The notes beneath the pieces were generated by a model, which was not told the DNA's origin, searched no databases, and was given only the letters and a program-made list of their open reading frames with translations. This document shows, piece after piece, positions 1-5,929 of a stretch of DNA of 36,246 nt. Positions within the stretch are counted from its first letter, which is position 1. Each line of letters opens with the position of its first letter. This DNA is from a virus (lineage: Duplodnaviria > Heunggongvirae > Uroviricota > Caudoviricetes), in IMG/VR virus record IMGVR_UViG_2703718820_000015, positions 1 through 36,246 of that record; one strand, given 5' to 3'. The position numbers were made by a program, and so were the translations under genes.

Positions 1-387
1 TCACTTCAGCGGGTAGTCATCAAACTCACCATAACGAGCATCGTTAATGATGTATGTGATTACGCCAAATATCGCATCAGGGCTCGTTCCGTCATCGTGC
101 AGAGGTATAGCTTCCCTTCTTCCTGTCTGCAAATCTTCCAGGTGAACCTTGGGTGATTTGCGGTATCGCTTAATCCTCAGCTCACCTTCCATTCTGCAAA
201 CAAGTAATGAGCCGTCGCATGGTGATAGCGAAGCATCCACAACCAGCAGCGCGCCATTCAGGATACCTTCCCGGTAGTGCGTCGCACCCGCTCGCATGAA
301 GTACGTTGCCGCTGGCCTGCTTATGATGCACTTGTCGAGCGATATGCGCTCTTCAACGTAGTCTTGTGCTGGACTCGGGAATCCCAT
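1..387 (-). CDS. UmuD'-like S24-family protein lacking the cleavable N-terminal arm (HumD-like)
   Basis: 128 aa; begins MGFPSPAQDYVEERI, which aligns with E. coli UmuD from Gly25 (the start of processed UmuD'). The GDSM catalytic-serine region is replaced by GATH; a Lys aligning with UmuD Lys97 is retained. SD GGAGGTGA precedes the ATG at 385-387; stop is at 1-3. Confidence 0.7.
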   Translation of the reverse strand: MGFPSPAQDYVEERISLDKCIISRPAATYFMRAGATHYREGILNGALLVVDASLSPCDGSLLVCRMEGELRIKRYRKSPKVHLEDLQTGRREAIPLHDDGTSPDAIFGVITYIINDARYGEFDDYPLK

Positions 388-404
388 AACTCACCTCCGA
401 TGGA

Positions 405-424
405 TACTGTATATTAATACAGCA
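405..424. promoter_or_regulatory. LexA (SOS) box TACTGTATATTAATACAGCA
   Basis: Fits the CTGT-N8-ACAG consensus exactly and closely resembles the E. coli umuDC box as recalled; lies about 18 bp upstream of the UmuD'-like start on the opposite strand. Confidence 0.7.
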
Positions 425-522
425 TTACTGATCGGCGGTGTCGATCAATAGCGTTTGTGGTGCTAAACTTCAGACCTTTCAGAAGCTACTGATACTTATC
501 AAAAAACTATTATAGGTGTATT

Positions 523-1620
523 TTGGAAATCGATAACAGTCCACCAAGAAAGAATAACCTTCAGTATATACAGGCGCTTAGGGCTATTGCAGCTATGCTT
601 GTCGTACTTTGCCATGCAAGGGATTTTTTGAAAGGAACAGAATATGAATGGCTGGCTCAGCGATTATTTTGGCCTGGTGCATTCGGAGTTGATTTATTTT
701 TCATCATTAGTGGTTTTATCATAATTTATACGTCTCATAGCTACCAAAGCAATGATTTGATAAAGTTTATTAAAAAACGTTTCTTAAGAGTTTGGCCTCT
801 ATATTTCATCATGACTATTGCATATATAGTCATTGTTAAAAATGTTGATTTATCTTTAATGCATGGGTTTTCATATAACCAATCATCTAGCTCATTTGAA
901 TTAACAAACATAATCAAAGGTTTGCTTTTCATTCCACTAAACACTGAGTCACCTATATACTTTGGGCCTCCATCATTGTTCGTTGGATGGACCCTCAATT
1001 ATGAAATATATTTTTATTTAGTTTGCGCCATTGGAATAGCGCTGGGGAAGTTTAGGTATACATTTTATATATTATGGTTTTTCATTACACTGTTAGCTTT
1101 GCCATCTATTGCGGGTGTATTCGACAGACCAAAAATTGAAGGTTTAGGATATATAAATTTAACCATGCAAAGCCTGATTTGGGAGTTTGTCTTCGGTGCG
1201 ATTATTGCTATCCTATACAAAAGTGGTAACTTTTCAATTAGAGACAAAAGGATTGCAATACCATTAATTTCGATTGGAATCATAATCCCTGTATGGGCTT
1301 ACATAACACAGTTTGATGCTGGGCATGGGATTTTTCATTCAGGGAAATATTTTTGCATAATGTTTGCATGCTTTACTGCATGCTCTGACTACATACAAGA
1401 CAACATCAAAATACCACGTATTTTCATCATGATTGGTGATGCTTCATACTCTTTGTATTTAGTTCATCCAATTACGTTTATATTATGCTTTAAGATGATA
1501 GATTGGCTTGGGATGGCTGATTTATCAAAAAGCTTCTCGTTTATTTTTATTGTATTTATAACATCTGTAGCTTTTGCACTACTAAGCTATAAATATATCG
1601 AGAAAAATATTCCAAGATAA
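523..1620 (+). CDS. Acyltransferase family 3 integral membrane protein (O-antigen O-acetyltransferase-like; lysogenic conversion candidate)
   Basis: 365 aa, strongly hydrophobic with multiple predicted TM segments; N-terminal LRAIAAMLVVLCHA motif typical of AT3/OafA/Oac enzymes; very AT-rich compared with neighbours; only in-frame start is TTG at 523, preceded by AGGTG. Confidence 0.7.
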   Translation: MEIDNSPPRKNNLQYIQALRAIAAMLVVLCHARDFLKGTEYEWLAQRLFWPGAFGVDLFFIISGFIIIYTSHSYQSNDLIKFIKKRFLRVWPLYFIMTIAYIVIVKNVDLSLMHGFSYNQSSSSFELTNIIKGLLFIPLNTESPIYFGPPSLFVGWTLNYEIYFYLVCAIGIALGKFRYTFYILWFFITLLALPSIAGVFDRPKIEGLGYINLTMQSLIWEFVFGAIIAILYKSGNFSIRDKRIAIPLISIGIIIPVWAYITQFDAGHGIFHSGKYFCIMFACFTACSDYIQDNIKIPRIFIMIGDASYSLYLVHPITFILCFKMIDWLGMADLSKSFSFIFIVFITSVAFALLSYKYIEKNIPR

Positions 1621-1626
1621 TTTTGA

Positions 1627-1651
1627 AGCGGCATGTTTGAAGCATGCCGCT
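1627..1651. terminator. 9-bp-stem hairpin between convergent acyltransferase and tailspike genes (possible bidirectional terminator)
   Basis: AGCGGCATG-TTTGAAG-CATGCCGCT perfect inverted repeat; no clean U-tract on either side, so function is uncertain. Confidence 0.35.
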
Positions 1652-1656
1652 ATTGG

Positions 1657-3582
1657 TTAGGCAGAAATATTCACAATCCCCCATGTACTTCCATTCCACA
1701 CCCATTGGACAGTAGGGTCGGAAGGATATGTTGCTGGAGATGTTCTGTAGGACACCAAGCCGATTGGGAAAGAACCTGTGTTCTCTGTCACAGTAGGCTT
1801 TGCGCTAGATCTCATTTTTACTTTCTCCCATCCGCAGAATACTGGAAGAAAGGTTCCGTTATACGGGCTAAAATACGCTCCTCCAACATAAGCGCTCATT
1901 CCGGATTCAACTGTAATCCTTAATCTGTATGCTTTACTTTTGTCGTTGGTTGGCGCTGAAACTTTGTATAACTTCCACCCTCCAACACCCATATCGTAGA
2001 ACTTATTAACTGACATATAGATGGAATTAGTACCATCTTGGGCTTCTATAGCTATCTCAAGTGGTGTGTCGCCTTTAAAGTAAAAAGCTCCACGAATGAA
2101 ACCTGTCTGTGTTTTAGTTAAATTTAGGGTTATTCTGCAACGTTGAGATGCGTTAGTGACTCCAAACCATCTACCGCAGCCAGATGGTTCATTAGGGTCA
2201 GAACCAACCTTTCGTTCGTTCGGTATAATTAAAAGGGAATAGTCAATAGGTGCTCCGTAGACTCCATCAATAACCGACCAATCTCCAGAAGGGCAAAGAT
2301 TAGAACCGGAGACACTGAACGTATCTCCTCCCTGTGCGCCTGCTGTAGGGTCTGTCCCTAATATGGTATTCATGGGGCTCATGGTTGAGGCCCAGTTACC
2401 ATATTGCACACGCGCGCCAAGTATGGTCCACGGCCCACGTATTTTCCCATTGCCCGTAACCTCGCCATACAAACCTATCACAACATTATGCTGATTTGGG
2501 GTGCTATTGTTATAGAGCAAATAATCGCCGCTTCCCGATGTGTCAAGACCTATAAATGTGTTTGCGTTCCCCTCATACGGAGCACCGGTCTGGCGACTAA
2601 AACCCGATCCAGTTATGATCAGACCACCACCGCAAAGCTGCTCAAATGTATTTTGATTTATAGATCCATCAGAGATGTCAATTATGAATCTGCCACCACC
2701 TGACGTAGTACCTGTTTTGATGCGTACAAATTGATTCCAAAAACTCCCGCCACCCCATTCAACCAACCCAGGCAGAGTGTATGCGTCTGATGATAAAAAT
2801 CTTATATCGCCGGTCGTATCAATGTTCGAGATAATAGAAAACTGTAGCCCTCTAATGTATAACGATTTACATGAAAGGCCAGTTACATTTATAGATTTAC
2901 TATGAAGGATTAGGAAATCCCCGTTAGGGATTCGGCCAACACAATCAACGTTACAGCGGATCACAAAGCGACCAGCAGAAGCATGAATGCCAGTCAGCTT
3001 GGTCATATCAACGACATAATCGCCTGGAGGGATATGCAATGATTTTCTGTTTTTCCCATACTCAACTAATTGTGAATAATCACCGTTAGCATAATCCAAT
3101 GCCTCACACAGTTTAGCAGTAACATCTGTACCATCCGGGAATACTCCCCATCCACGCACGTCTAAATCATCACGCCAGCGAGAAATCTGCAATGCGGGAT
3201 ATTTGGTTGCCCCATCAGGGTCTTCAATCTGCTGCCTTAACTGATCTGGGTCGTACTTCAGCACATTAGGAAAATAGAACTGCTGCGCACCATATGCATC
3301 ATAAACAGCCATAGAGTGGCCTTGCACAGTTACGAACTTGGCAATCTGTCCGTTATATACCGGATATCCAGCAGCATTAATGATGATTGGTTGCGAAACA
3401 GGAACGTGAGAGCCGTCTTCGTTCTCTATATAAACCTGAATCTGGTTTTCAGGATTTACCGGGTCAGTGTCAATTTTACCGATATAAATTTTGCCATTGG
3501 CTACGGCTTTAAAAGAACGAGCCATAGTGAAGAGTTGCGAAGGCATACTCACTACAACATTGGCATTTATTGAATCTGTCAT
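1657..3582 (-). CDS. Tailspike protein (P22 gp9-type head-binding domain plus receptor-binding domain)
   Basis: N-terminus [47 protein letters not shown] matches the conserved P22-family tailspike head-binding domain. Start moved to the internal ATG at 3580-3582, which has a GGAG SD; ORF-track start at 3618 is rejected. Confidence 0.9.
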
Positions 3583-3681: not shown

Positions 3682-4617
3682 TCAGTAGTTATGTACTGAA
3701 GGAGGTAATTCTTTATTCTTAAGTCTCATCCATGCGGAAAGATTCGTTGGTCCGTCTGGCTCATTGATATCAACATCTCGTGTGTGATTGATTAAAACGT
3801 CTCTCGCCATTCCGATAACATACGAGAACTCATGACCATAGTCGTAGCATCTGCCGGAATAGTTCGATTGAATTTGTTTTAATGCCGGATACAGTTCGCG
3901 GAATAACGCCTGTGAGCGGTTGGCATAATCCCATAACCATACAAGGCTGTTTGCTTCTTTTGCAGAAAGCTCGTTGGTTTTCTTCTCTTGTTTGCCAATG
4001 AACTCACCTTCAAGCGGAACGCGAGCAGCAAGTGACAGTGCTTCGGTAAACTGCTCATCACTGATTTCTTTGTACGAACATCCAAAATGGGATTTCAGTG
4101 ACGACCACATGGTGATCATCGCCTTCGCCTGTTTTTCTTTTGGCAGAGACTGACCGCGACTCATGACGAGTTGTTTAATGGCTTCCTGCTGTTCAGTGGT
4201 GATTTTACCCGGCAACGCCTTTTTAGCTTTGCGTGGGTTAACTACATGGCCTTTAGTCCAGTAGTCATGCAGCACGCTAAAGCATTCCTCCTGGTACTGA
4301 ATCAGTTTATCACGGATGTCAGCACGAACTTTCTCAGGGTTGATGCTGAACAGCCATCCATTTAGCTTCTTCAAAGGAAGGCAGAGTAGCTTACGAAGCT
4401 TCCCATCAGCGGCAACCATGTTCATATGAACACAGTTGAATTTGCTAATCTGCTTCATGAGTTTTGTTTGCTGCGTTGACCAGCTCATTCCAAGGTTTTC
4501 AACGATTGGCTTCATCGCAACATATGCAACTCCGGCAGCCATGGCGGTGATAATTTGCTGACCGTTGAATGGTACGTAAGAGGTGTTCACTGCTTCTAAA
4601 ATTGCTATACTATTCAT
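3682..4617 (-). CDS. ant: Antirepressor Ant
   Basis: Position immediately downstream of arc. N-terminus [21 protein letters not shown] preceded by GGAG SD, so start is set at 4617 rather than ORF-track 4683. Antirepressor-type domain architecture. Confidence 0.85.
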
Positions 4618-4937: not shown

Positions 4938-5192
4938 ATGGCTAGAGATGATCCGCACTTTAACTTCCGTATGCCTTTGGAAGTAAGAGAAAAATTGAAA
5001 TTAAGAGCCGAGGCTAACGGAAGGTCAATGAACTCTGAGTTATTACAAATCGTTCAGGATGCACTATCAAAACCATCACCGATTACAGGATATCGCGACG
5101 AAGCTGAACGCTTGGCTGATCAGCAGGCTGAGCAGTTCAAGGCTATAGTGTTTGAGACACTTAAAAAGATTTATGAAAAGGATTTGAAATGA
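4938..5192 (+). CDS. mnt: Mnt repressor
   Basis: 84 aa MARDDPHFNFRMPLEVREKLKLRAEANGRSMNSELLQIVQDAL..., ribbon-helix-helix, very similar to P22 Mnt as recalled; SD GGAG 8 nt upstream. Long ORF-track upstream extension rejected. Confidence 0.95.
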   Translation: MARDDPHFNFRMPLEVREKLKLRAEANGRSMNSELLQIVQDALSKPSPITGYRDEAERLADQQAEQFKAIVFETLKKIYEKDLK

Positions 5193-5524
5193 GATTTCTA
5201 TCACTGTTCTTGTTAGCAGTTGTCTCTTCTTCCAGTGCTGAGCTGCGCGAGCTTCAAACGGGTAATGACCTTCTTTACAACATTCAACAAGGTAAAAAGG
5301 GTGATGATTTTTCATCGCTTTACATTACTGGATATTTGCGCGGAGTAACTGACTCATTGATACTAATTGGTTCTCTATGTCCTCCTGATGGCGTTGACAT
5401 GTATCAATACACCGATATCGTTGAGAAATATCTAAACAAAAACCCAGAATCAAGAAATGAGAGCGCAGTTATACTAACAGCCCTAGCAGTAGGAAAAACA
5501 TTTCCGTGCAAAAAGAATCAATAA
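5189..5524 (+). CDS. Secreted/periplasmic protein of unknown function (signal peptide; mnt-coupled)
   Basis: 111 aa; N-terminal MRFLSLFLLAVVSSSSA signal peptide; start ATG overlaps the mnt stop (ATGA); AT-rich; occupies the slot where P22 has sieA. Confidence 0.6.
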   Translation: MRFLSLFLLAVVSSSSAELRELQTGNDLLYNIQQGKKGDDFSSLYITGYLRGVTDSLILIGSLCPPDGVDMYQYTDIVEKYLNKNPESRNESAVILTALAVGKTFPCKKNQ

Positions 5525-5539
5525 CAATAAGGGCTTAAA

Positions 5540-5929
5540 ATGAAATTGATTATAGCAATGGCTTTCCTTGTCTTCTCGTTTTCTGTCTCAGCAGAGTGCT
5601 GGGTCGTTGGGGATATGCACGGAATAAGCTATTCAGAACGAAATAATTTTCAACCGGAAGAAGATGGTTTTAGTGGAACATTCATCATTAAGACAAACGG
5701 TGAAGATGCCAGTATCACATATTCTGGGACGGATGCGGGCGGCATGGCTTACAAAGCATTGTCTAAAAACTCCATCATTGGAATCGGCGCGAATGGCGAA
5801 ACTCAACGAGTTATCGACTCATGGGTAATACATCCTAATGGAACAGTTTTAATGTCGAAAACCATTTCTGGTTATGGGAATATGGATTCAACCAAAGCTT
5901 TTATTGGAAAAGTAAAAAGAAAATGTTAA
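5540..5929 (+). CDS. Secreted protein of unknown function (signal peptide, Cys near both termini)
   Basis: 129 aa; MKLIIAMAFLVFSFSVSA signal peptide with VSA/E cleavage motif; AAGGG SD; AT-rich; directly follows the previous gene. Confidence 0.6.
   Translation: MKLIIAMAFLVFSFSVSAECWVVGDMHGISYSERNNFQPEEDGFSGTFIIKTNGEDASITYSGTDAGGMAYKALSKNSIIGIGANGETQRVIDSWVIHPNGTVLMSKTISGYGNMDSTKAFIGKVKRKC

What the first reader, a model, noticed from the sequence alone, without database searches (positions are those of the whole stretch)
523..1620. AT-rich acyltransferase-3 gene with a TTG start adjacent to the tailspike: candidate O-antigen acetylase
The gene is much more AT-rich than the surrounding phage DNA, encodes a polytopic membrane AT3 enzyme, and sits next to the tailspike, where P22-like phages keep receptor-modifying conversion genes (gtr or oac). 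The only in-frame start is TTG. Modifying the O-antigen would change host serotype and block superinfection by phages using the same receptor.
Basis: partly seen in the sequence, partly recalled or inferred. Interest (0 to 1): 0.5.

Follow-up and report, generated by a model that had tools for sequence, protein, structure and literature searches.

The report
Prophage O-antigen acetylase paired with tailspike
This is a real, intact prophage gene for a membrane acyltransferase that travels as one unit with the phage's receptor-binding tailspike domain and was found only in hosts with the E. coli O38-type O antigen, so it is very probably an ordinary serotype-converting O-antigen acetylase of a known kind.

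Summary
ORF 523-1620 (+) encodes a 365-aa AT3-only acyltransferase (Pfam PF01757, 100.7 bits). It has the R-X10-H, FFxISG and RxxR motifs and a confident 10-helix model. At 33.6% GC it is the lowest-GC stretch of a 47.8% GC window. TTG-523 is the only canonical start upstream of the essential Arg20. The gene lies convergent to a P22-type tailspike, the same layout as oac in phage Sf6.

AT3 and the tailspike receptor-binding domain (RBD) form one block, window 549-3138. That block recurs at 94.7% nucleotide identity in a different podovirus-type prophage of Enterobacter hormaechei. It recurs again, more diverged, in Morganella. dS is similar for both genes, and AT3 dN/dS is 0.07.

All three complete E. 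coli genomes that carry the gene are serogroup O38 (13 of 5,426 are O38). E. marmotae HT073016, which has the O38/S. dysenteriae 8 cluster, carries it at another integration site. The O38 cluster has no acetyltransferase gene. The gene survives intact in decayed prophage remnants.

The substrate, the acyl group and the exclusion effect are inferred. Verdict: a new member of a known kind, of modest interest.

The parts
523..1620 (+). AT3-only membrane O-acyltransferase gene, 365 aa, TTG start. Key residues: Arg20-X10-His31, V56-DLFFIISGF-65, Arg86-xx-Arg89.
514..518 (+). AGGTG Shine-Dalgarno sequence, 4 nt upstream of TTG-523.
   Evidence: Read directly from the sequence. The Enterobacter copy has the same AGGTG-N4-start arrangement, with GTG as start.
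494..548 (+). Junction segment holding the RBS, the TTG and the first ~9 codons. It is shared neither with other P22-like prophages nor with the Enterobacter cassette.
   Evidence: Homology to other E. coli prophage ends stops at ~493 (hits H4-H10). The block shared with Enterobacter starts at 549.
549..3138 (.). Mobile cassette inherited as one block: AT3 from codon 10, the inter-gene hairpin and the tailspike receptor-binding domain.
   Evidence: A single 2,590-bp blastn block at 94.7% identity to E. hormaechei prophages L021/L022. Homology to the O111 prophage at the same chromosomal site is lost across 239-3232.
1627..1651 (.). GC-rich hairpin between the convergent genes. It is a probable bidirectional terminator but has no clean U-tract.
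   Evidence: -18.1 kcal/mol (+ strand) and -15.0 kcal/mol (- strand), z about -3. It was not called by the consensus terminator scan. Sf6 has an annotated terminator at the equivalent spot.
1657..3201 (-). Tailspike receptor-binding domain (about residues 128-641). It has no sequence match to any solved tailspike.
3202..3582 (-). Tailspike N-terminal P22-type head-binding (anchor) domain.
   Evidence: Pfam PF09008, E = 7e-66. Matches the Sf6 gp14 and P22 tailspike N-termini in the PDB.

Best explanation
The gene encodes an inner-membrane AT3-only O-acyltransferase, most likely an acetyltransferase. It acts as the lysogenic-conversion partner of the adjacent tailspike.

Proposed mechanism, following the AT3 model of PMC7448272 and PMC9833829:
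1. Cytoplasmic acetyl-CoA enters a central cavity lined by Arg20, Arg86 and Arg89.
2. The acyl group is presented near His31 at the periplasmic face.
3. It is transferred to a sugar hydroxyl of the undecaprenyl-linked O38-type O-antigen before ligation to the LPS core.
4. The acetylated O antigen is no longer bound or cleaved efficiently by the tailspike receptor-binding domain encoded next door.
5. The lysogen therefore changes serological subfactor and resists superinfection by phages carrying that RBD, and released virions are not wasted on lysogen debris.

Shown here: family membership and motifs; the 10-helix fold; purifying selection; physical and evolutionary coupling to the RBD; association with O38-type hosts.

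Inferred: the acceptor glycan and position; that the acyl group is acetyl; expression from TTG; the effect on adsorption.
For: Family and fold:
- Pfam AT3 at 100.7 bits; PHROG 'O-acetyltransferase' at 1e-59.
- Arg20, His31, F59/F60, S63/G64 and R86 are invariant and R89 is nearly invariant (>=90%) across 61 homologues. These correspond to the residues defined as essential in PMC7448272.
- The AlphaFold model has pLDDT 91 and pTM 0.90, with 10 long helices and no extra domain.

Layout: convergent tailspike/AT3 with a hairpin between them, as for Sf6 tailspike/oac.

Cassette coupling:
- One continuous block (549-3138) is shared with a non-P22 podovirus-type prophage of E. hormaechei. AT3 is 96% and the RBD 92% identical at protein level.
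- A Morganella prophage with a different tailspike anchor has AT3 at 64% and the RBD at 79% identity.
- dS is 0.149 for AT3 and 0.175 for the RBD, so the two diverged together. dN/dS is 0.068 for AT3 and 0.21 for the RBD.
- More distant relatives also abut phage receptor-binding genes: a P2-like tail fibre and a Citrobacter P22-like tailspike.

Host association:
- The gene occurs in 3 of 5,426 complete E. coli genomes, and all 3 are among the 13 O38 genomes. My arithmetic gives a chance probability of about 1e-8, or about 5e-6 if DAM and ANT count as one clone.
- E. marmotae HT073016 (CP025979) carries the identical protein at a different integration site. It has the O38/S. dysenteriae 8 gene cluster and agglutinates with SD8 antiserum (PMC6650469).
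- The O38 cluster holds only wzx, wzy, galE and four GT-like genes, one of which is only a weak, sub-threshold GT2 match (17.6 vs 23.3 bits). It has no acyltransferase.

Retention: the ORF is intact in prophage remnants whose tailspike was destroyed by IS elements, in NCTC9038 and in DAM/ANT. The exact protein is indexed in 214 assembly blocks.
Against: - There is no biochemical or expression evidence.
- Identity to the only characterised relative compared directly (Sf6 Oac) is 23%. AT3 sequence does not predict the acceptor.
- Automated names on 30-37% relatives say ExoZ, an exopolysaccharide acetylase.
- No promoter of >=9/12 consensus matches lies in the 135-bp upstream region. The best candidate I could read by eye is about 8/12.
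- The TTG start and the AT-rich sequence may mean low or silenced expression.
- Ten of the 13 complete O38 genomes lack the gene.
- The published chemical structure of the O38/SD8 O antigen could not be retrieved, so whether it carries O-acetyl groups is unknown here.
- The tailspike's receptor is inferred, not shown. Its structure could not be modelled.
- The dacD/sbcB site is only ~20-25 kb from the rfb cluster, so part of the O38 association could be linkage.
Confidence: 0.72

Rival explanations
1. The enzyme acylates a different envelope glycan, such as a capsular K antigen, colanic acid, enterobacterial common antigen or periplasmic glucans. The tailspike targets that glycan rather than the O antigen.
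For: - AT3 proteins act on many glycans (PMC9558356).
- Relatives at 30-37% identity carry ExoZ names.
- The same RBD/AT3 cassette works in Escherichia, Enterobacter and Morganella. This could hint at a widely shared glycan.
- A PHROG named for colanic-acid degradation matched the tailspike, but only over its N-terminal 242 residues.
Against: - Carriers among complete E. coli genomes are exclusively O38, and the E. marmotae carrier is O38-type. This argues for a serogroup-specific receptor.
- From established knowledge, E. coli already has core AT3 enzymes for ECA (WecH) and for glucans (OpgC).
- The closest non-Escherichia relatives of the O38 Wzy (52-55%) are in E. hormaechei, the very species that carries the cassette. 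Related O antigens across genera are therefore plausible.
Confidence: 0.12
2. The enzyme does acylate the O antigen, but the pay-off is not self-exclusion. The modification might serve host immune evasion or defence against other phages. Alternatively the acyl group might be part of the epitope that the neighbouring tailspike needs.
For: - The gene is kept intact after the rest of the prophage has decayed, in NCTC9038 and DAM/ANT. This suggests a benefit to the bacterium independent of the phage.
- A solitary 43% relative sits between dacD and sbcB with no prophage at all.
- Some tailspikes act on O-acetyl groups themselves (titles, e.g. PMC6989608).
Against: - The tight, long-lived linkage to one particular RBD across three phage backbones is what is expected if the enzyme masks that RBD's own receptor.
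- The characterised precedents (Sf6 Oac, BTP1 OafB) work by blocking the cognate tailspike (PMC9558356).
Confidence: 0.1
3. The gene is a silent or decaying passenger in this host, with no current function. It could be poorly translated from TTG, H-NS-silenced as AT-rich DNA, or both.
For: - TTG start, no strong promoter match and 33.6% GC.
- In two S. dysenteriae genomes IS1 interrupts the gene at window nt 1504-1512.
- The AT3 in the same slot of O111 prophages is annotated as a short 302-aa ORF lacking the N-terminal motif region.
Against: - dN/dS is 0.068 over dS 0.149 against the Enterobacter copy.
- All catalytic motifs are intact.
- The ORF is intact in at least 214 assembly blocks and in IS-ridden remnants.
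- There are zero substitutions in 1,098 nt across four lineages.
Confidence: 0.06

Closest known systems
Oac (OacA) of Shigella phage Sf6, and the related OacB/C/D serotype-converting acetylases
   Same: - AT3-only architecture with no SGNH domain.
- P22-like prophage.
- The gene lies immediately beside and convergent to the tailspike, with a terminator hairpin between.
- R-X10-H, FFxISG and RxxR motifs are present.
- The expected role is O-antigen acetylation that blocks the cognate tailspike (PMC9558356).
   Different: - Only 23% identity over the full length, so it is not an orthologue.
- It is 365 aa against 333 aa.
- The host antigen is O38-type rather than the S. flexneri backbone.
- The outer neighbour is humD, whereas Sf6 oac is followed by int.
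- TTG start.
OafB (GtrC family II) of Salmonella prophage BTP1, and OafA
   Same: A prophage-associated AT3 enzyme that acetylates the O antigen and protects against the prophage's own tailspike (PMC9558356). It shares the AT3 core motifs.
   Different: OafA and OafB are AT3-SGNH fusions with an 11th helix and a periplasmic SGNH domain. The window protein ends after helix 10.
ExoZ-like exopolysaccharide acetyltransferases (Sinorhizobium succinoglycan ExoZ type)
   Same: Stand-alone AT3 proteins of similar length. Automated annotations give this name to many 30-37% relatives.
   Different: Those genes sit in EPS biosynthesis clusters of soil bacteria. The closest relatives of the window gene (43-96%) sit next to phage receptor-binding genes. 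No characterised ExoZ was compared directly.
Modular tailspike RBD exchange among E. coli phages (Pas et al. 2023, PMC10408124)
   Same: The RBD is swapped at the anchor/RBD junction between phage genera while keeping serogroup specificity.
   Different: Here the exchanged unit also includes the adjacent receptor-modifying gene. The second breakpoint lies inside that gene's first codons. I did not check whether that paper reports such co-transfer.

Membership tests
Acyltransferase-3 (AT3, Pfam PF01757) | Profile HMM match above the curated threshold over the whole domain | tested here: met
   100.7 bits against a cutoff of 31; residues 14-356 match profile positions 2-325 of 326
Acyltransferase-3 (AT3, Pfam PF01757) | R/K-X10-H motif in transmembrane helix 1 (PMC7448272) | tested here: met
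   Arg20 and His31 are both invariant in 61 homologues. They lie in model helix 14-36.
Acyltransferase-3 (AT3, Pfam PF01757) | V-x-x-F-F-x-(I/V/L)-S-G-(F/W/Y) motif in helix 2 | tested here: met
   The sequence is V56-D-L-F-F-I-I-S-G-F65. F59, F60, S63 and G64 are invariant. The motif is as quoted in PMC9558356.
Acyltransferase-3 (AT3, Pfam PF01757) | RxxR motif at the cytoplasmic end of helix 3 | tested here: met
   The sequence is R86-F-L-R89. R86 is invariant and R89 is conserved in >=90%.
Acyltransferase-3 (AT3, Pfam PF01757) | Ten-helix integral membrane fold | tested here: met
   AlphaFold model with pLDDT 91.1 and pTM 0.90, with ten long helices. No solved structure exists for comparison.
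Acyltransferase-3 (AT3, Pfam PF01757) | Acyl-CoA-dependent O-acylation of an extracytoplasmic sugar | not testable with these tools
   Needs biochemistry.
Phage serotype-converting O-antigen acetylases (Sf6 Oac type) | AT3-only protein encoded in a temperate phage next to the tailspike | tested here: met
Phage serotype-converting O-antigen acetylases (Sf6 Oac type) | Orthology (close sequence relationship) to Oac/OacB/C/D | tested here: not met
   23% identity to Sf6 Oac, E = 6e-8. The best hit in the phage collection is only 31% identical. OacB/C/D were not compared directly.
Phage serotype-converting O-antigen acetylases (Sf6 Oac type) | Presence correlates with one O-antigen type, and the acetyltransferase is absent from the rfb cluster | tested here: met
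   All 3 complete-genome carriers are O38, of 13 O38 genomes among 5,426. The E. marmotae carrier is O38-type. The O38 cluster lacks an acyltransferase.
Phage serotype-converting O-antigen acetylases (Sf6 Oac type) | The lysogen's O antigen gains O-acetyl groups and the cognate phage no longer adsorbs | not testable with these tools
   The O38/SD8 structure was not retrievable from the paper library.
AT3-SGNH fused acetyltransferases (OafA/OafB/OatA) | C-terminal 11th helix plus a periplasmic SGNH domain | tested here: not met
   The protein ends at residue 365, right after helix 10. There is no second Pfam domain.

The most novel reading that the evidence does not exclude
The AT3 gene and the tailspike receptor-binding domain form a self-contained 'recognise-and-mask' cassette (window 549-3138). 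It co-evolves and moves intact between unrelated phage backbones and between genera (Escherichia, Enterobacter, Morganella). Its breakpoints lie at the tailspike anchor/RBD junction and inside the first codons of the acyltransferase, which is why each copy has its own non-ATG start.

Its state differs between hosts: intact in the O38 type strain NCTC9038, absent from most complete O38 genomes, and IS1-broken in two S. dysenteriae genomes. This would define an unrecognised acetylation subfactor of the O38/S. dysenteriae 8 antigen.
Probability: 0.45. Interest if true: 0.5.

Novelty: new member of a known kind. Interest (0 to 1): 0.33.

Why it matters
If confirmed, this gene would be the phage-borne modifier of the E. 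coli O38 / S. dysenteriae 8 / E. marmotae O antigen. That antigen's gene cluster has no acetyltransferase.

It would explain hidden serological and phage-susceptibility heterogeneity within one serogroup. That is relevant to serotyping, to O-antigen-based diagnostics or vaccines, and to the choice of tailspikes or phages against such strains.

The data also give a clean, testable example of a receptor-binding domain and its receptor-masking enzyme being inherited and horizontally exchanged as a single unit across phage types. The principle itself (Sf6 Oac, BTP1 OafB) is well established, so this extends a known theme rather than opening a new one.

Tried and rejected
- Megablast of the region against 50,697 phage records found no match. 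tblastn found only relatives of <=31% identity over most of the length.
- PDB sequence search and a Foldseek search of the confident AT3 model against the PDB found no related solved structure, so there is no structural template to compare with.
- Single-sequence AlphaFold of the tailspike RBD failed (pLDDT 36). It was therefore not used for a fold search, and the enzymatic class of the tailspike stays unknown.
- NCBIfam gave no hit for AT3 or the tailspike. PADLOC gave none for AT3, humD or the two small moron ORFs.
- The consensus promoter scan found nothing in the 388-522 intergenic region and did not call the 1627-1651 hairpin a terminator.
- The literature hunt for the chemical structure or O-acetylation of E. 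coli O38 or S. dysenteriae type 8 failed.
- I tried to establish the serotype of the two S. dysenteriae carrier genomes. It remains undetermined.
- A scan of GTDB species representatives for the O38 Wzy found no relatives.
- I considered a fused SGNH architecture and rejected it: it is absent.
- I considered a start at ATG-595 and rejected it: it removes the invariant Arg20.
- I considered AT-richness as a marker of very recent foreign acquisition and rejected it: the whole clade is 33-37% GC.

Full report
**1. The observation**

The mechanical ORF list gives 523..1620 (+), 365 aa, TTG start. GC is 0.336 against 0.482 for the rest of the window. This is the minimum of all 1,098-bp windows (mean 0.478, sd 0.036), and GC is low at all three codon positions.

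The reading frame opens after a TGA at 490. TTG-523 is the only ATG/GTG/TTG before the codon of Arg20. The first in-frame ATG (595) falls between Arg20 and His31 and would remove an invariant residue. AGGTG lies at 514-518. Homologues start at the same alignment position, 10-20 residues before the conserved motif.

**2. What the protein is**

- Pfam Acyl_transf_3 scores 100.7 bits (cutoff 31) over residues 14-356, with no other domain.
- PHROG 3333 'O-acetyltransferase' scores 1e-59, and PHROG 6705 'O-antigen acetylase' scores 6e-16.
- The features that the AT3 literature defines as essential are R/K-X10-H in helix 1, the FFxISG motif and RxxR (PMC7448272; PMC9558356). All are present: Arg20/His31, V56-DLFFIISGF-65 and R86-FL-R89. 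They are invariant or nearly so in a 61-sequence alignment.
- An AlphaFold model built on that alignment is confident (pLDDT 91.1, pTM 0.90). It shows ten long helices and a disordered N-terminal decapeptide.
- No solved structure resembles it by sequence or fold. This agrees with the 'novel fold' description in PMC9833829.
- It is an AT3-only enzyme like Oac, not an AT3-SGNH fusion like OafA or OafB.

**3. Surroundings**

The window is a P22-like prophage. It runs from a humD gene (1-387, -) to an excisionase-like gene at the far end.

The gene next to AT3 is a tailspike with the P22 head-binding domain. Its N-terminus matches Sf6 gp14 and P22 gp9 in the PDB. Residues ~128-641 match nothing solved.

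The two genes are convergent and separated by 36 nt that contain a -18 kcal/mol hairpin. Sf6 has exactly this arrangement: tailspike, terminator, then oac on the opposite strand.

The first 8 kb of the window is 100% identical to an E. coli draft contig (GCA_001608245.1). There humD lies 343 bp from dacD.

**4. Homologues and their contexts**

Sf6 Oac is only 23% identical. The phage collection holds nothing above ~31% over most of the length. Family membership alone therefore cannot name the substrate. Many 30-37% relatives carry automated 'ExoZ' names.

The closer relatives are informative through their position:

| Relative | Identity to window AT3 | Context |
|---|---|---|
| Citrobacter braakii protein | 43% | Directly after a P22-type tailspike at a prophage end |
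| Gut-metagenome protein | 54% | Convergent to a P2-type tail fibre and its chaperone |
| Morganella morganii protein | 64% | Convergent to a tailspike with a different N-terminal anchor |
| Enterobacter hormaechei protein | 96% | Convergent to a 761-aa tailspike in a prophage with T7-gp14-like internal proteins |
| Escherichia sp. ESNIH1 protein | 43% | Alone between dacD and sbcB, no prophage |

All of these genes are 33-37% GC in loci of 47-56% GC.

**5. The cassette**

- The Enterobacter tailspike shares 92% identity with window tailspike residues 138-641, but has an unrelated 257-aa N-terminus.
- The Morganella tailspike shares 79% identity over residues 115-640.
- At DNA level the Enterobacter prophage matches the window in one continuous 2,590-bp block, 549-3138, at 94.7% identity. 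The block covers AT3 from codon 10, the hairpin and the RBD.
- Against an O111 P22-like prophage at the same dacD site, homology is lost across 239-3232 and resumes in the head-binding domain. That prophage carries a different AT3 and a different RBD.
- The cassette's 5' breakpoint lies inside the first codons of AT3. The window copy starts TTG and the Enterobacter copy GTG, each 4 nt after AGGTG. The unusual start codon is therefore a junction feature.
- Synonymous divergence from the Enterobacter copy is similar for the two genes (dS 0.149 for AT3, 0.175 for the RBD). This shows common descent as a unit. AT3 is under strong purifying selection (dN/dS 0.068) and the RBD less so (0.21).

**6. 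Host association**

- Only 3 of 5,426 complete E. coli genomes contain the gene: NCTC9038, and the near-identical seawater isolates DAM and ANT.
- All three carry 'O38 family' wzy and wzx genes. Only 13 genomes have the O38 wzy.
- The chance of 3/3 is about 1e-8, or about 5e-6 counting two independent lineages (my arithmetic).
- These three have decayed prophages at dacD/sbcB, ~20-25 kb from the rfb cluster, so linkage could contribute.
- The identical protein also sits in P22-like prophages next to the yfdC/integrase site. One of these is in CP025979, the chromosome of E. marmotae HT073016. That strain's O-antigen cluster is 99.4% identical to E. coli O38 and it agglutinates with S. dysenteriae 8 antiserum (PMC6650469). 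This is an independent species and an independent integration site.
- The O38 cluster contains wzy, wzx, galE and four GT-like genes, one of them only a weak, sub-threshold GT2 match. It contains no acyltransferase.
- The nearest non-Escherichia relatives of the O38 Wzy (52-55%) are common in E. hormaechei, the species that carries the cassette. I could not test co-occurrence in the same genomes.

**7. Signs of function and history**

- The AT3 gene has 0 differences in 1,098 nt in E. coli L003, E. marmotae L006 and NCTC9038. Yet humD and the RBD differ at 12 and 26 positions in E. marmotae. This points to a single recently spread allele.
- It is intact in remnants where IS elements removed the tailspike at three different points (window 1685, 2003 and 2193).
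- In two S. dysenteriae genomes IS1 interrupts the gene at 1504-1512. Their serotype could not be established.
- The exact protein is indexed in 214 assembly blocks.

**8. Mechanism and rivals**

The best-supported reading (0.72) is a serotype-converting O-acyltransferase. It uses cytoplasmic acetyl-CoA through the Arg/His pore described for AT3 (PMC9833829). It modifies the O38-type O unit at the periplasmic face and thereby masks the receptor of the co-inherited RBD.

Rivals:
- a non-O-antigen glycan as acceptor (0.12);
- O-antigen acylation whose benefit is not self-exclusion (0.10);
- a silent passenger (0.06).

The weak points are the absence of any chemistry or expression data, no strong promoter match, the unknown receptor and fold of the tailspike, and the unavailable O38/SD8 structure.

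**9. Novelty and score**

Phage-borne AT3 acetylases beside tailspikes are textbook (Sf6, BTP1, phiV10). This is a new member of a known kind.

What is mildly new:
- the specific link to the O38/SD8 antigen;
- the clear evidence that RBD and modifying enzyme are exchanged as one cassette across phage backbones and genera.

Interest: 0.33.

Noticed in passing
window 1-387 (-) and 407-422: The outermost prophage gene is a HumD-family (UmuD-like) translesion subunit: NCBIfam equivalog NF051876, 207 bits. A perfect LexA box, CTGTATATTAATACAG, lies upstream and is the only CTGT-N8-ACAG in the window. No umuC-like partner was seen next to it. The box lies in the divergent region, 100 nt upstream of the AT3 start.
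   Followed up: partly
window 430-433 and 443-446: Two GATC sites lie 13 bp apart in the humD/AT3 divergent intergenic region, next to an ATAG. Dam/OxyR phase variation is known for gtr/oafB conversion loci (PMC9558356). I did not test whether these sites regulate AT3. The region 405-493 is shared with prophages lacking this AT3.
   Followed up: no
window 523-1620 versus L003, L004, L006: The AT3 gene has zero nucleotide differences across E. coli, NCTC9038 and E. marmotae copies. The flanking humD (31 differences per kb) and RBD (17 per kb) differ in E. marmotae. This suggests one recently swept allele embedded in recombining flanks.
   Followed up: partly
L019 / L020 (S. dysenteriae CP026827, CP119450), equivalent to window 1504-1512: IS1 is inserted in the 3' part of AT3 with a 9-bp target duplication. 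The product is a 356-aa protein lacking the last helix and the invariant Glu360 (position). A tailspike remnant continues to window position 2003. If these strains are serotype 8, this could distinguish the SD8 antigen from the E. coli O38 antigen.
   Followed up: partly
window 5189-5524 (+) and 5540-5929 (+): Two small + strand ORFs lie between the mnt/arc immunity region and the gp16-like ejection gene. The first hits Pfam PF18602 Rap1a and is annotated as a Rap1a/Tai-family immunity protein in related prophages. The second has a signal-peptide-like N-terminus. They look like a second moron slot. PADLOC gave no hit.
   Followed up: no
L008 3511-4419 (E. coli O111:H- 11128 prophage at dacD): O111 P22-like prophages carry a different AT3 in the same slot. 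It is annotated as a 302-aa GTG-start ORF whose alignment begins at the window's residue 61, so it lacks the R-X10-H helix. It is either truncated or mis-started.
   Followed up: no
window 4016-4601: The antirepressor gene is mosaic. Its C-terminal part is shared with the argW-site prophages, but its N-terminal domain is replaced (P22_AR_N here, Bro-N in L003, KilA-N in L006).
   Followed up: no
L013 / L014 (Escherichia sp. ESNIH1): A 43%-identical AT3 sits alone between dacD and sbcB with no prophage genes. It looks like a domesticated remnant of the same conversion slot.
   Followed up: no
L011 6440-7462 and 8001-9110 (Erwinia sp. Eh17-17): Two divergent AT3 genes lie side by side next to phage remnants and the flagellar fliE-fliF cluster. 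One of them is 55% identical to the window protein.
   Followed up: no
whole window; L024: The window starts exactly at the humD stop codon and ends at the stop of an excisionase-like gene just before int. An IMG/VR prophage contig of 35.7 kb carries the identical AT3 at the same offset, 523. The window therefore looks like a trimmed prophage prediction.
   Followed up: partly
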